The position numbers and the translations under genes are program-made. Positions 4,941 to 58,851 of a DNA stretch of 64,000 nucleotides are shown piece after piece (positions within the stretch are counted from its first letter, which is position 1; each line of letters starts with the position of its first letter). The DNA lies in the NCBI GenBank assembly GCA_964016885.1, contig OZ024762.1:17918001-17982000 (forward strand), in the 5' to 3' direction. This DNA is from Eledone cirrhosa. Its lineage: Eukaryota. The notes beneath the pieces were generated by a model that had not been told where the DNA came from, did no database searches, and saw only the letters and a list, made by a program, of their open reading frames with translations.

Positions 4941-5377
4941 CGGGACTGTGGAGCGGCCAGCACGTGGGACCCCATTTGCTCACAGTACAGAGAGACGGGG
5001 AGGGCGAGAGAGATATGGAGGCGATGACAATAGGAGTTCGGCTCTTCCGTGTTCGAACACATTTGCACCCGTCATGCGGATCACGTGATAATTTCATTTT
5101 ACATATCGTTAACATATATAAATGACGTCACTGCTCTAAAGTCATTGACATCCATCGTATGTTCGCTATTGCTGCTTAGTCCCGCTACCCCCCCCCCCCC
5201 TCTCTATCAATCTCTGTATACGTATATATATATATATGTAATATAGAATATGCTTCAATCAATCCCGGTTGGAGCTGTATAAATGAAGTAATTCCGTCGG
5301 AAAAGTCCAGGAAAAAAGAGTGCTCTACGTAGGTATCAGAGCTTAATAGTTATGTAATAAACAACATAAGGCAATTA

Positions 5378-5438
5378 TTTCATTTACCAGTGGTTTCTTA
5401 AAAGCAAAAAAATTTTGCTTTCAATCATCAGAAAGAAA
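5378..5438 (-). ncRNA. Type I hammerhead ribozyme (family E, antisense arm)
   Basis: Reverse-complement counterpart of 5503-5563. Confidence 0.75.
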
Positions 5439-5502
5439 AAATCCTGGCGTATTTATTGACGTTGGATTTTAAAATCCAACGTCAATAAATACACCAGGAT
5501 TT

Positions 5503-5563
5503 TTTCTTTCTGATGATTGAAAGCAACATTTTTTTGCTTTTAAGAAACCACTGGTAAATGAAA
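5503..5563 (+). ncRNA. Type I hammerhead ribozyme (family E)
   Basis: TTTCTTT-CTGATGA-TTGAAAGCAA..TTGCTTTTAA-GAAA-CCACTGG-TA-AATGAAA. Confidence 0.8.
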
Positions 5564-5659
5564 TAATTGCCTTATATTGTTTATTACATAACTATATATA
5601 TATATATATATATATATATATATACATATATATATATATATATATGATTTCTAGTATAG

Positions 5660-6125
5660 ACACAAGACCAGTAACTTGGGAGAGGGGAAAGTCGATTAAA
5701 TCGACCCCACTACGTTACTGGTGCTTTATTTTATCGACCCCGTAAGGATGAAAGGCAAAGTTAACCTCGGTGGGTTTTGAAATCAGACCGTAAAGTGCCG
5801 TAACTCTATGCTGCAAGGCATGGTCTCCGACTCTCTACCGATACTGCAAATTCATCGCCCTTCTATACATATATATATATATATATATATATATATATAT
5901 ATATATATATATATATATAAATACAAGTTTTGTAAAGATAACTGTTTCTACTTTTGGCACAAGGCAAGCAATTACCCAGTACATTACTGGTACTTTATTT
6001 TATCGACCCCGTAAGGATGAAAGGCAAAGTTAACCTCGGCGGGATTTGAACTCAGAATGGCAAGGGCCGTAACTGTATGCGTCAAAGCATGGCGTCCGAC
6101 CCTCTACCGACGCTGCCAATCCACC
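5660..6125 (-). mobile_element. Two SINE S1 copies
   Basis: B-box-like GAGTTCAAATCCC and the core domain on the minus strand, at 5660-5862 and 5940-6125. Confidence 0.8.
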
Positions 6126-6174
6126 TTTTGTAAAGATAACGAGAGTACATTAGCGTTGTGTAGAAATACCACTC

Positions 6175-53807: not shown

Positions 53808-53880
53808 GACTTAGAATTTGGAACAGGATATTTTCTAGAAGTCTTATACTGTCATTATTTGTTCAAATTATTTGTACAAG

Positions 53881-54185
53881 GGCGGTGAATTGGCAGTATC
53901 GGTAGAGGGTTGAACGCCATGCGTTGACGCATAGAGTTACTGCCCTTGCCATTCTGAGTTCAAATCCCGCCGAGGTTAACTTTGCCTTTCACTCTTACGG
54001 GGTCGATAAAATAAAGTACCAGTAATGCACCGGGAAATTGCTGGCCTTGTGCCAAAAGTAGAAACAATTATTTGTTCAAATCCTGCCGAGGGCAATTTTG
54101 CCTTTCATCCTTGCGGGGTCGATAAAATAAAGTACCAGTAATGTACTGGGTAATTGCTGGCCTTGTGCCAAAAGTAGAAACAATT
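53881..54185 (+). mobile_element. SINE S1 plus duplicated 3' half
   Basis: Full copy followed by a B-box-to-tail repeat. Confidence 0.8.
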
Positions 54186-57100
54186 ATATTATATATATAT
54201 ATATATATATATATATATATATATAAGTATATATATATATAATTATATATATAAGTATATATATATATATATATATATATTATATATACATATATATATA
54301 TATATATTAAAATATAAGTATTAATATTAATAACTCCTGAAAATTATTTTTCGTTGAGTGCTTCCAATCTACTGTAAAACTCATTCTTTGACATAATCAT
54401 CGAATATTGTTTAACAACTTAATACTTATATATATATATATATATATATATAATTATTATATATATATAATTATTTTATATATATATATATATATATATA
54501 ATAATTATATATATATAATAATTATTATATATATATATATATATAATATATATATATATATATATAATAATTATATATATATATATATATATATATATAT
54601 ATATATATAATATATATAATAATTATATATATATAATAATTATTATATATATATATATAATATATATATATATATATATATAATAATTATATATAATTAT
54701 TATTATATATATATATATATATATATATAATAATTATATATATATAATAATTATTATATATATATAATTATTATATATATATATATATATAATAATAATT
54801 ATATATAATAATTATATATATATAATAATTATATATATATAATAACAGAACACACTCACTGTTTGGTTTGGATTGGTTTTCTCTTCTGTATCTTTTATAT
54901 CTCCAGAGTTAATTTATCTGGCAATCAATGTTTACGATTGATTCAGCAGCGGTTAAAAAAATACAGATATAAATATATATATATATAGTCTATCAAACTT
55001 CTTTCGTCACACACCTGTTACATCATCAGTGGTACTATTATGTTTTCTCCCGTTGTATTGTAATAGCGTAGACACACACACACACACACACACACACACA
55101 CACACATATATATATATATATATATATGGCCTAGTAGTAAGGGTGTTTGACTAACGCTCATAATGTCGTGGGTTCGATTCTTGGGTTACGTGTTGTGTTC
55201 TTGAGAAAAATACTTCATTTCACGTTGTTACAGTATACTCAACTGAAAATGAGTACCAGCAATAGCTGGTTTAACCCTTCGACAGACTGGCATCCTGTCC
55301 AGGGAGGAGTCTTGTACTCTCAGTCGCTTCACATCATGAAACTGAGATAAGCACCAGCCAAATGAGCTTTCTGGCAGACTTTAGACATATATATATATAT
55401 ATATATATATATAAACTTTTGTTTGTACTGCCTCTCTGTTTTTGTTCCCGTCCCAGTTTTCACTAAATATGTATATATATATATATATATATATATATAT
55501 ATATATATATATATATAAAGAAAAAGAGATGAAATCGAAAATGCAACTGGAGTCTTATTTTTTAAAAAGATATATATATTTGTTTGGTTCCTTTACCGGT
55601 TTCGCAGTTCTTCTGCTTTTCAAAAGGTGAGTTGAGATGGAGGGTCTGTGGTTTTTCTCACATCTGAGATTGTTTTTAAATTAGTATTTTTTCAACCTAG
55701 CTAACTTGGTCATTTGCAATTGGAACACATGTATTCTTATATCGGTTTATTTTCATCAAGTTTCCTCAAGACTAACGAAACGTACGTACCTGGTATGGCG
55801 CCATGGAAATAACTGGCCTTAATTTGTATATATATATATATATATATATATATACACACACATTATATACACACCAAAGTAGAGAAGCCATCAATTTGAC
55901 TTAGTGTTTGAAAAGAGATCGAGTGAAGTGACAGCCATTACGTAGTTTCAATTGAAAGCAGGACTGGGAGTTGTAAAGAGGTAGAACTTACAGACACAGC
56001 TGTATGGCAGCTAGAGACTGTTCACTGTAGACTGGGCGAACGGGTACAGGGCGGAGGAACGGGGTAGTTTTCTTATATATTAAATTTATATAATGTCTTT
56101 GATTATGTATGTGTGTGTGTATATATATATACTCTCTTTCTCTCTCTCTCTCTCTCTCTCTCTATATATATATATATATATATATATATATATATATATA
56201 TATATATATATATATATAAACATATATATATGTATATACATTATAAATATATATATATATATACTCTCTCTCTATATATATATATATATACACACATATA
56301 TATACATATATATATTAACATATATATATGTACATACATTATAAATATATATAGTAGAAACAATTATATATATATATATATTATATATATACATATATAT
56401 ATTAAATTTATATAATGTCTGATTATGTATGTGTATATATATATATATATATATATATATATATATATATACTCTCTTTCTCTCTCTCTCTCTCTCTCTA
56501 TATATATATATATATATATATTAACATATATATATATATATATATATATATAAACATATATATATGTATATACATTATAAATATATATATATACTCTCTC
56601 TCTCTCTCTATATATATATATATATATACACACATATATATACATATATATATATATAAACATATATATATGTACATACATTATAAATATATATAGTAGA
56701 AACAATTATATATATATATATATATATATATATATATATATATATATATATATATATATATATATATATATATACATATATATATATATATATACCCTCT
56801 ATATATAACAGTGGTATTGTTCAGCCTGTTGATACAGTTGCAACTGGTGAATATTTAAATATCTCTGGTTACTTATTTACATAGAACGAAATGAAAGAAG
56901 ATTGGCTTGATAATAATGAAAATATTTTACAAATACCACATACATATATACATATATATATATACACACACATATATATATATATATATATATATATATA
57001 TATATATATATATATATATATATATATATACATATATACATATATATATATATATCTATACATATATATATGTATGTGTGTGTATACTTAGGTATATATA

Positions 57101-57662
57101 TATTAGATGTATATATATATATATTAATATATATGCATGTATTTATAAATGTATGTATGATTGCATATATGTACGTATTTATATGTATGTATATATATAT
57201 ATATATATATATATATATATATATATACATATATATATATACATATTATATATATATTATATGTATATGTATATATATATATATAATATATTATATATAT
57301 ATATAATATATTATATATATATATATATATTATATATATATATATATATTATATATATATATATATATATATATATATATATATATATATATATATATAT
57401 ATATATAAAAAACACATATATGTGTATATGCATGTCTATATAAATACTTTGAGACATTCCATATTGATTTATCTGAGTCTGTTGCCAGGAAATTGTGCAA
57501 CATCAGAAATAACAAACCAAAATATGTGACATGCAATAATTAGCTTCTCTCTCACTATATATATATATATATATAATTAGAATTTTATTTCCTGCCCTAG
57601 CACAGCTGATACATAAATGGAAGTATGCATACGTACACACACATCTATGTAAATATATATAT

Positions 57663-58450
57663 ACTAGCAGCAGTACCCAACGTTGCCTGGGTAGGTAAAA
57701 TAATATCTGCTTTGATGAAAAGGTGTTGATCTTAGCGACTGCTTCTCGATGACTCATCTATGGCCACACCCAGGCCTTGCGGGGGAGGGTGGTGATGACC
57801 TCTATCACTGACAAAGGCGGGTGACTGACGAAGGGGCATGCTGGGGGAGGGAGTTTCGAATTTGAACGAAATCGGTTGAGAAATGTGGGAGCAAGAGCCG
57901 AAAAGGCGGAAATTTGAGCGAAAAGGTGGTATTTTCGAATATTTAAGCGGCTGCCACGCCGTTCCTGAACAAAAAATCCAAAATGTAAAGCCAGTTTAAG
58001 ACGTGAAATAATCAGATCTAGCGTAGTATAAAATTTGAACAAAGTAGGTTGATTAATGTGGGAAATTTGAGTCTAAAAGTGGTATTTTTGAATATTTAAG
58101 CGGCTGCCACGCCGTCCCTGAACAACAAATGCAAAATATAAAGCCATTACAGGATGTGCAATGATAAATTCTATTTTGCTTTAAAATTTGAACGAAATCG
58201 ATGGCAAAATGTGGGAGATAGAGCCAAAATCTTATTTTTCGATACCTAAAAAAAGGTGACTCTCCCTATCGATTTTTATCTGGAGAATGACCTCGGAATA
58301 AAAAAAAAAAACGATACGCTGGTATATAGAAAACACTCCCCGATGACTAATCTATGAGCCTGTAAAGTTTCATGAAAATCGGTCTTAAGATGTAGGCCCC
58401 TATAGGTAATACACAGACACATACTTAATTTTATATATATACAGAAGATA
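57663..58450 (+). mobile_element. Possible Helentron/HINE-like element with internal duplications
   Basis: ACTAGC..TACCCA.CGTTGCCTGGGTA hairpin at start; repeated GGTATTTT.GAATATTTAAGCGGCTGCCACGCCG; TTTTATATATAT end. Confidence 0.45.
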
Positions 58451-58851
58451 TATATATATATATATATATACACACATATATACACACAAACAGACACACA
58501 CACAGACACTCACACATATATATACATTTACATATGTACGTATGGATTATATCGAACATTACTAATAATGTTCGATTCGTTTGTAAACAAACGGCCCGTT
58601 TTAAACCTGTGCCGGTGACCGATCGTCACCTGGCTTATATACATAGAATTTGGTGGTCCAGTACTGGATAGAACTCGTCATTCCGTTTAGTTAACCATGA
58701 TGCAATAGTAAGAAAAGTACTCAATGTAACGCAACTCAATCATATTTGATGTAAGATTCCGTTGGTGGTGCGGAAACGGAATTAAATATTATTGAATAAA
58801 GTGACAGGGGGCCGGAAAATTGAAATTGCTTTAAAGTTTGTATTTTTGCAG

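What the first reader, a model, noticed from the sequence alone, without database searches (positions are those of the whole stretch)
5322..58790. Conserved 2-nt-bulged hairpin shared by otherwise dissimilar ribozyme families
Seen: downstream of the cleavage site each family has RCTC-[stem-loop-stem]-T(T/C/A)-GAGY-RC. A ACTC-TACT..AGTA-TT-GAGT (20623-20646); B TACTC-TGC.GTA-TT-GAGTA (18310-18330); C TACTC-CAG..TTG-TT-GAGTG (15900-15921); D TACTC-CAGT..ACTG-TA-GAGTG (26032-26058); E GCTC-TGT..ACA-TA-GAGC (16115-16135, minus, compensatory G-C); F ACTC-CGTA..TACG-TT-GAGT (16352-16412, minus); G CACTC-TGT..ACA-TC-GAGTG (40918-40969, minus); I CACTC-TGCTCT..AGAATA-TT-GAGTG (15300-15326, minus). The apical stem varies in sequence and length while pairing and the bulge are kept. 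I do not recognise this as a named motif. Inference: a cis-acting RT-binding or template-boundary element, conceptually like telomerase RNA boundary elements or the hepadnaviral epsilon stem-loop; PLE RTs are relatives of TERT.
Basis: partly seen in the sequence, partly recalled or inferred. Interest (0 to 1): 0.88.

Follow-up and report, generated by a model that had tools for sequence, protein, structure and literature searches.

The report
Twin hairpins set retroelement copying starts
A small bulged hairpin occurs twice in one group of telomerase-related jumping genes, and inserted copies end a few letters before one hairpin or the other, so the pair likely tells the copying enzyme where to start and would explain the odd one-sided tail of these elements.

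Summary
The hairpin is real: all 8 cited copies check out, with 27 scan hits against 1.8 in shuffles. Its pairs covary across families picked without regard to pairing. The window elements are stubs of Hydra-clade Penelope-like retrotransposons in (TA)n; families A, B and J lead into Hydra-type RT-endonuclease ORFs elsewhere in the genome. Complete elements carry two hairpins before the ORF; so do 2 of 2 metagenome relatives and one published consensus. Copies end about 3-10 nt before hairpin 1 or hairpin 2, and 83 of 84 fold-back insertions have one end of each kind. Best reading: an RNA docking signal lying 3' of two internal reverse-transcription starts. It is not a telomerase-type template boundary, because the polarity is wrong. 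Function is untested, and predicted folding is weak. Seven literature searches found no description. This scan reported the same twin-hairpin reading earlier on other pieces of this genome and in one other genome; those notes gave me the Hydra and twin leads, which I then tested.

The parts
20623..20648 (+). Hairpin 1, family A (pLTR of Hydra-type element H3)
   Evidence: 88% identical to the L295 pLTR
18854..18879 (+). Hairpin 1, family A
4039..4068 (+). Hairpin 1, family A (4-nt duplication in the 3' arm)
27380..27405 (-). Hairpin 1, family A, in fold-back insertion 27333-27531 (one short arm, one tailed arm)
   Evidence: 95% identical to the L295 pLTR
37901..37926 (+). Hairpin 1, family A
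38020..38045 (+). Hairpin 1, family A (second, 5'-truncated copy)
42727..42752 (-). Hairpin 1, family A, in fold-back insertion 42680-42855
59626..59651 (+). Hairpin 1, family A, in fold-back insertion 59516-59697
18240..18288 (+). Type I hammerhead of family B (stems I-III; predicted cut after 18283, 27 nt before hairpin 1)
   Evidence: read from the sequence; activity untested
18311..18331 (+). Hairpin 1, family B (pLTR of a Hydra-type ORF in L203/L297)
11704..11724 (-). Hairpin 1, family B
38293..38313 (+). Hairpin 1, family B, in fold-back insertion 38173-38354
40238..40258 (-). Hairpin 1, family B
15552..15985 (.). Family C fold-back insertion: short inverted arm, hammerhead cores 15613-15651 (-) and 15795-15833 (+), tailed arm
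15901..15922 (+). Hairpin 1, family C
27646..27666 (-). Hairpin 1, family C (tail-only fragment)
38696..38717 (-). Hairpin 1, family C, in fold-back insertion 38634-39004
25834..26114 (.). Family D fold-back insertion: hammerhead core only on the short arm (25881-25927, -); tailed arm 5'-truncated
26033..26059 (+). Hairpin 1, family D
4211..4237 (-). Hairpin 1, family D, in fold-back insertion 4155-4468
39243..39269 (+). Hairpin 1, family D, in fold-back insertion 39038-39324
5320..5342 (-). Hairpin 1, family E (G-C at the first outer pair); hammerhead cores at 5394-5431 (-) and 5510-5547 (+)
16113..16135 (-). Hairpin 1, family E; hammerhead core at about 16184-16231 (-)
16351..16412 (-). Hairpin 1, family F (long loop); hammerhead core at about 16481-16522 (-); part of a 2077-nt non-coding tandem unit elsewhere
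   Evidence: 97% identical to L102
58717..58790 (-). Hairpin 1, F-like subfamily (one change in the 5' outer arm)
40917..40968 (-). Hairpin 1, family G (long loop)
18488..18562 (-). Long-loop hairpin 1 of a further family
15299..15325 (-). Hairpin 1, family I
26327..26353 (-). Hairpin 1, family J-like
   Evidence: 76% identical to the H2 pLTR
54333..54361 (+). Hairpin 1, family J-like
   Evidence: 84% identical to the H2 pLTR
38455..38620 (+). Short arm of family J (H2 pLTR): hammerhead core 38515-38556; TA run begins 9 nt before the place of hairpin 1
   Evidence: (88% identical)
60108..60138 (-). Hairpin 1 of a further family (K)
20372..20429 (+). Short arm of held-out family H5; TA run begins 10 nt before the place of hairpin 1

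Best explanation
The hairpin occurs twice in front of the gene of Hydra-clade Penelope-like retrotransposons, and insertions end a few bases before one copy or the other; it is likely the RNA docking site that positions the element's reverse transcriptase at two internal start points. Shown: the order hammerhead - hairpin 1 - hairpin 2 - ORF; two end points per family, each about 3-10 nt 5' of a hairpin; tail length equal to hairpin spacing; one end of each kind in fold-back insertions. Inferred: a tandem locus is transcribed through the pLTR, and the RT-endonuclease, probably as a dimer, binds the outer helix, the bulge and the conserved 3' flank. It nicks both strands of (TA)n, and each nicked 3' end anneals to the short U/A-rich stretch just 5' of a hairpin. 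Each subunit then copies the RNA in the 5' direction. The cDNA from hairpin 1 lacks the tail; the cDNA from hairpin 2 contains hairpin 1 and the tail; the two join head to head. The signal used for a start is thus not copied by that start, so only tandem arrangements restore hairpin 2. Non-coding units that keep the hairpins, such as F, would be mobilised in trans.
For: Ends: in family A the TA run starts 8 nt before hairpin 1 in 25 of 79 ends and 6 nt before hairpin 2 in 44 of 79. J gives 11 and 12 of 29 at 9 nt before each hairpin; F gives 11 ends at -13 to 0 and 23 ends at 5-9 nt before hairpin 2, of 38. In H5, a family not used to build the model, 43 of 47 ends fall 3-10 nt before the two hairpins. 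Raw DNA reads of two other samples: TA-continued loose ends pile up behind L295:1909 (3354 and 2886 reads) and 1989 (8666 and 9439); the hairpins start at 1915 and 1993; depth falls from about 11,400-12,500 to 36-57 past hairpin 2. Tail length against hairpin spacing: A 80/78, J 96/96, F 142-146/144, H5 90-94/90 nt. Fold-backs: 83 of 84 have one short and one tailed arm, with 42 expected if arms were independent; 36 of 37 in the window plus unselected loci. In 46 of 83 the short arm reaches at least 15 nt further 5' than the tailed arm, so neither arm is a copy of the other. Pairing-blind selection, 20 multi-copy or hammerhead-linked clusters: first outer pair 18/20 (AU 13, GC 4, GU 1); inner pairs 18/20 (UA 10, CG 7, UG 1), 18/20 and 17/20; slid or unbulged registers 0-8/20. 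At inner pair 2 over all 44 clusters, G-T occurs 10 times and A-C once, which favours the sense strand. Both metagenome Hydra-type loci, fetched by protein alone, have hammerhead plus twin hairpins, with a compensatory C-G to U-A change in the outer helix of hairpin 2. Published Hydra consensi, read by eye: full hairpin about 40 nt after the hammerhead in 2 of 6, twin hairpins before the ATG in 1 of 6. A Poseidon PLE protein starts reverse transcription at two internal sites that bound the tail, extends both target strands and is predicted to dimerise (PMC11167929).
Against: No binding, priming or structure-probing data exist. The isolated hairpins fold weakly (-3.6 to -11.5 kcal/mol). The minimum-energy structure has the exact 2-nt bulge in only 4 of 22 families, and the sense strand is the more stable in only 12 of 22. 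RNAalifold keeps the outer 4 pairs only. Two outer pairs never vary, so they may be read as sequence. Families are related, so shuffle p-values are inflated, and the 26 rows were hand-picked pairing examples. H1 has a 1-nt bulge and scores only 13-14 bits; its hairpin 2 is a by-eye long-loop reading. The single ORF-linked B copy keeps only a 3' remnant of hairpin 2. Families C, D, E, G and I were not traced to an ORF. Of 6 published consensi, 2 show no hairpin and 1 a deviant one. Poseidon, and a Neptune family with two ends, lack the motif, so two-site ends do not need this hairpin. D and F loci were fetched with tailed queries. Of 7 H5 fold-backs, only 4 have both ends exactly in the two clusters. 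The end positions fit RNA cleavage or DNA cutting at those points equally well.
Confidence: 0.68

Rival explanations
1. The motif acts as DNA: the GIY-YIG endonuclease recognises it in duplex DNA or in folded cDNA and cuts beside it to resolve the insertion intermediate, which leaves the two end types.
For: The core letters are nearly invariant, RNA folding is weak, and the 3' arm plus flank is near-palindromic in most families. PMC8557442 ascribes the tail to endonuclease-mediated resolution. PMC11167929 cites earlier work that the Penelope endonuclease needed the tail on plasmids (the original paper is not held).
Against: Pairs covary across a bulge, with a sense-strand G-T excess. Short arms often hold sequence that the tailed arm lacks, which a single cDNA folded back and trimmed cannot give. 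Every end joins (TA)n directly.
Confidence: 0.14
2. The hairpin guides RNA cleavage or 3'-end formation a few bases upstream of itself, by a host nuclease or the element's protein; ordinary priming at the RNA 3' end then follows.
For: The ends lie just 5' of each hairpin, where such cuts would leave 3' ends.
Against: Strict pairing of one short with one tailed arm (83 of 84) would need two differently cut RNAs per insertion. The Poseidon protein initiates internally on uncut RNA, and RNA cleavage was not required (PMC11167929).
Confidence: 0.12
3. The hairpins serve translation or transcription of the ORF (5' UTR element, promoter box), or are a conserved relic, and the ends reflect only U/A-rich microhomology to (TA)n.
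For: Hairpin 2 lies about 20-65 nt before the start codon, and A/T-rich runs precede the hairpins.
Against: The non-coding unit F keeps both hairpins. The pLTRs hold many other A/T-rich runs, yet the ends concentrate at two places. The one-of-each pattern is left unexplained.
Confidence: 0.06

Closest known systems
Hydra clade of C-terminal EN+ Penelope-like elements (Craig et al. 2021, PMC8557442)
   Same: RW(R/K), DKT and CxCx5C motifs, hammerhead in the pLTR, (TA)n targets, inverted 5'-truncated arm and one-sided tail. Of the paper's six new consensi, three contain the hairpin by eye.
   Different: The main text never uses 'hairpin' (0 hits), and section 11 describes no element after the hammerhead. 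It gives the tail as 30-40 bp and attributes it to endonuclease resolution; here tails are about 65-145 nt and match hairpin spacing.
Internal two-site initiation in Poseidon_Ac (Frangieh et al. 2024, PMC11167929)
   Same: Two internal RT start sites bound the tail, both target strands are extended, AT-rich targets are used, and the starts lie downstream of the hammerhead.
   Different: A different clade. [quoted passage not shown] Here the starts map just 5' of a twice-repeated, covarying bulged hairpin.
3' UTR stem-loops of stringent LINEs and their SINEs; R2 3' UTR (recalled, from no call)
   Same: A short structured RNA tag is recognised by the element's RT and shared with non-coding hitch-hikers.
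   Different: There the tag lies 5' of the start and is copied into every insertion. Here it lies 3' of the start, is not copied by that start, and is doubled.
Telomerase RNA template boundary element; hepadnaviral epsilon (recalled, from no call)
   Same: A bulged or helical RNA element that fixes what a related RT copies.
   Different: A boundary element lies 5' of the template and stops synthesis, whereas hairpin 1 is read through. Epsilon templates priming from its bulge, whereas the ends here lie outside the hairpin.
Non-LTR retrozymes (PMC7229834; bioRxiv 10.64898/2026.07.22.740005)
   Same: Family F forms a non-coding head-to-tail unit with a hammerhead, in line with retrozymes as non-autonomous PLE derivatives.
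   Different: The F unit is 2077 nt, against 51-972 bp in the preprint. Neither text mentions a hairpin signal.

Membership tests
Hydra-clade PLE | RWK motif in place of GxKF/Y | tested here: met
   RWR in the N-terminal part of H1-H5; RWK in the metagenome locus L194
Hydra-clade PLE | DKG changed to DKT | tested here: met
   DKT in 4 of 4 aligned proteins
Hydra-clade PLE | CxCx5C linker before a C-terminal GIY-YIG-type nuclease lacking CCHH | tested here: met
   CxCx5C in H1 and H3; the last C is changed in the one H2 copy aligned; Y[IV]G motif, CxxC and CxH seen. Pfam gave no hit for H1 or the H3 fragment.
Hydra-clade PLE | Hammerhead in the pLTR | tested here: met
   H1, H2, H3, B, L193 and L194, some with variant cores; cleavage untested
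Hydra-clade PLE | Insertion into (TA)n | tested here: met
Hydra-clade PLE | Generally under 3 kb | tested here: inconclusive
   Unit lengths: H1 about 2.6 kb, H3 about 3.1 kb, H2 4.5 kb
Hydra-clade PLE | Placement in the clade on an RT tree with the published members | not tested
   The published proteins were not available to the tools as sequences
Hydra-clade PLE | Window families C, D, E, G and I descend from Hydra-type ORFs | tested here: inconclusive
   No ORF-linked copy was seen in the loci held; F is non-coding; only A, B, J and H5 were linked
Telomerase template boundary element | Lies 5' of the template and stops synthesis (recalled) | tested here: not met
   The hairpin lies 3' of the start, and tailed arms contain hairpin 1
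Hepadnaviral epsilon | The bulge itself templates the first bases (recalled) | tested here: not met
   Ends map 3-10 nt outside the hairpin
LINE/SINE 3' stem-loop | The signal lies 5' of the start and is copied into each insertion (recalled) | tested here: not met
   Short arms lack hairpin 1; read depth drops by over 99% at hairpin 2 in family A
Poseidon AC-rich initiation stem loop | Initiation inside an AC-rich loop | tested here: not met
   Starts lie 5' of the stem; no model match in the Poseidon-type pLTR of L092
RT-binding cis element (functional class) | Protein binding and mutation-sensitive initiation | not testable with these tools
   Needs biochemistry
Rfam families | Match at a curated score | tested here: inconclusive
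   None of the 150 rows shown (of 342 at E<=1) names a hammerhead or fits this motif; they are mostly microsatellite-driven miRNA hits; 192 weaker rows were not shown

The most novel reading that the evidence does not exclude
Hydra-clade Penelope elements use a two-seat docking code. Two copies of one small bulged hairpin on a single RNA seat the two subunits of an RT-endonuclease dimer, and each primes on one target strand just upstream of its hairpin. This would be an initiation signal that is never copied by the start it directs. It would explain the tail, the inverted arm and the need for tandem copies in one stroke, and would be a portable tag of about 25 nt that makes any RNA a template.
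Probability: 0.4. Interest if true: 0.85.

Novelty: new variant of a known kind. Interest (0 to 1): 0.7.

Why it matters
How Penelope-like elements, the sister group of telomerase, choose their template and start site is open. The one in vitro study found two internal starts but did not define the protein-binding motif beyond a 172-nt region (PMC11167929). This motif gives exact, mutable positions and a clear prediction: move the hairpin and the end moves. It explains the long-noted one-sided tail by hairpin spacing. The elements also shape this genome: 70 model hits at E<=0.1 in 780 kb, roughly 90 per Mb, would mean a few hundred thousand copies if the sample is typical. Young copies with open 713-codon frames exist, so the biochemistry is feasible.

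Tried and rejected
Neptune as the partner: the top GIY-YIG hits are Neptune-type ORFs whose own ends carry no hammerhead and no full hairpin; adjacent hairpin elements were separate insertions into their (TA)n. Helentron or DNA-transposon reading: dropped once A, B and J were linked to RT ORFs. 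Hammerhead cleavage as the cause of the short end: the predicted cut lies about 26-60 nt before hairpin 1, the ends within 10 nt. Fold-back copying of one arm from the other: rejected. Unbulged 6-pair helix: 86% paired against 100%, with 17 of 25 broken at inner pair 1. Self-complementary dimer site in the 3' arm: breaks with a C-A mismatch in E-type families. No PLE ORF in the window. The viral-contig scan found no relative. No RNA holder was listed, which is no evidence on expression. Contigs of four other organisms hold the A stub, and none bridges hairpin 2, which proves nothing. The twin-pattern search was swamped by one satellite and gave two useful loci. One search used a 5'-truncated reference and was repeated. 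Two searches with a further Hydra-type ORF got no answer. Not held: the paper on dimeric PLE hammerheads and the 2004 Penelope endonuclease paper; one recalled PMC id was a different paper. No RT tree and no dimer prediction were run.

Full report
1. Observation. All eight hairpins are at the cited places. A strict scan found 27 hits in the window against a mean of 1.8 in 30 shuffles. In 380 kb of other genome stretches it found 42 against 0-3. The window lies in a 3.0-Gb genome and has no PLE ORF. The elements are 100-450-nt islands in (TA)n, mostly fold-backs. A full hammerhead core is present in the window for B, C, D, E, F and J; A and G are cut within it, and I is a variant. The 150 Rfam rows shown, of 342, held no match to the motif.

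2. Is it a structure? To avoid circularity I picked sites by the 3' letters and a nearby TA run, with no pairing rule: 283 sites in 63 clusters, 44 of them with an upstream CTC (the 19 without were dropped). In the 20 multi-copy or hammerhead-linked clusters, the first outer pair held in 18, and inner pairs 1-3 in 18, 18 and 17, with switches between U-A and C-G. Slid or unbulged registers held in 0-8 of 20. Over all 44 clusters the counts were 32, 35, 33 and 35. G-T outnumbered A-C 10 to 1 at inner pair 2, which favours the sense strand. A hand-picked alignment of 26 hairpins gave 34 double changes for the bulged helix, and 86% pairing for the unbulged one. Against: folding is weak, the exact bulged fold is the minimum-energy one in 4 of 22 families, RNAalifold keeps the outer helix only, and the families are related.

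3. Whose element? The best GIY-YIG hits were Neptune-type and lacked the motif at their own ends. Earlier notes of this scan suggested the Hydra clade and twin hairpins, and I tested both. Family A is the pLTR of L295: ORF end, 3' UTR, hammerhead, hairpin 1 (1915), hairpin 2 (1993), ATG (2080), an open frame of 718 codons, 3' UTR, hammerhead, and a TA run just before the place of hairpin 1. Family J is the pLTR of L296, with the same order. B leads into a Hydra-type ORF in one copy, with only a remnant of hairpin 2. H5, whose short arm is at window 20372-20429, has both hairpins in many young copies. H1 has 1-nt-bulge variants, its second hairpin read by eye. F is a 2077-nt non-coding tandem unit with both hairpins. 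The proteins carry the diagnostic motifs listed in PMC8557442 section 11; no tree was built. Several other hammerhead families, including a Poseidon-type one, lack the hairpin. C, D, E, G and I were not traced to an ORF.

4. Outside this genome. Both metagenome loci found with a Hydra-type protein (42% and 44% identity) show hammerhead, twin hairpins and ATG, with a compensatory change in the outer helix of hairpin 2. Of the six consensi in File S7 of PMC8557442, read by eye, two (coral, sea cucumber) have the full hairpin about 40 nt after the hammerhead. One (sea cucumber) begins 2 nt before twin hairpins, one (copepod) is deviant, and two show none. Six 8-letter forms of the 3' arm gave 17 hits, all in the Naiad and Chlamys files, and none looked like this hairpin in the passages shown.

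5. Relation to insertion ends. With natural copies as references, TA-flanked ends form two clusters in nine of ten families; family I gave only tailed ends. Where hairpin 2 is known, the second cluster lies 5-9 nt before it, and tail length equals hairpin spacing. The held-out family H5 gave 43 of 47 ends 3-10 nt before the two hairpins. Reduced-representation DNA reads from two other samples gave the same two ends for A, and a fall in depth of over 99% at hairpin 2; such reads do not sample evenly. TA microhomology blurs each junction by a few bases. Of 84 fold-backs, 83 pair a short with a tailed arm; in unselected loci plus the window it is 36 of 37. In 46 of 83 the short arm holds 5' sequence that the tailed arm lacks; 30 of these are family D, which was fetched with such a query. 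Neither arm can then be a copy of the other, so two priming events are needed.

6. Mechanism. Shown: anatomy, covariation, end positions and the one-of-each rule. From the literature: a Poseidon protein initiates at two internal sites, extends both strands, does not need hammerhead cleavage, and is predicted to be a dimer (PMC11167929). Inferred: the protein docks on each hairpin, nicked (TA)n ends anneal just 5' of it, and two cDNAs are made and joined head to head. I put this at 0.68, DNA-level recognition at 0.14, RNA cleavage at 0.12, and a role unrelated to ends at 0.06.

7. Novelty. Seven full-text searches turned up no description of the motif. What I read: PMC11167929, parts 1-3 of 4 and the text layer of two supplementary PDFs, whose figures I could not see; PMC4209133, parts 1-2 of 4; PMC8557442, passages, section 11 and supplement parts 1, 2, 52 and 53 of 59; passages of PMC3846280, PMC8969392 and PMC7229834; bioRxiv 10.64898/2026.07.22.740005, parts 1-2 of 5 and passages, not its supplements. 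Repbase, Dfam and subscription papers were not searchable, so a prior mention there is possible. An RT-recognised stem-loop is a known kind of thing; one that is doubled and placed 3' of the start appears to be a new variant. This scan has reported the same reading on at least seven other pieces of this genome and in one other genome; those notes are not independent support.

8. Verdict. A real, clade-specific, covarying RNA motif tied tightly to the two insertion ends of Hydra-clade PLEs. Its function is inferred, and directly testable. Interest 0.70.

Noticed in passing
G000:C1:14233476-14242868 (L267-L294): A long 58-bp tandem satellite whose unit is a family-A hairpin 1 with short flanks.
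   Followed up: no
L061, L066, L069, L081; window 55500-55700: A Neptune-type family without a recognisable hammerhead also has two end points about 65 nt apart. A degenerate look-alike of the hairpin (same 5' arm, 4-bp inner stem, imperfect outer helix) starts about 9 nt after the first end. It gave no model match. The signal may be older than the Hydra clade.
   Followed up: partly
L102/L103 (G000:C2:92429340-92434747): Family F is a 2077-nt non-coding head-to-tail unit with an extra internal hairpin copy besides the twin pair; retrozyme-like but large.
   Followed up: partly
window family A copies; L295:1845-1865: The fold-back centres of family A cluster inside the long loop II of its hammerhead, about 60-70 nt before hairpin 1, so most A stubs lack half the ribozyme core.
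   Followed up: partly
family D loci L001-L030: The short arm of D usually stops at one fixed 5' point about 85 nt before the hammerhead core, possibly the transcription start.
   Followed up: no
G000-wide, family H5 (L302-L331): A young Hydra-type family, 95-100% identical over the 58-residue query, with many open frames of about 713 codons; its hammerhead core and hairpin 1 flank are variants.
   Followed up: partly
window 40627-40698 (+): tRNA-like match above the Rfam cut-off (40.8 bits); may be a SINE head.
   Followed up: no
window 35289-36818 (-): Decayed non-LTR retrotransposon reverse transcriptase fragments.
   Followed up: no
window 28134-28334 and 48100-48209: Two more fold-back islands in (TA)n with no hairpin hit; families not assigned.
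   Followed up: no
window 4732-6140, 21600-25700, 31600-34940, 44970-54260: About 30 copies of an abundant SINE-like repeat of about 190 bp, often in clusters; it resembles an octopus SINE (recalled, not tested).
   Followed up: no
window 7627-8457 and 10388-11095: Clean 43-bp and 81-bp minisatellite arrays.
   Followed up: no
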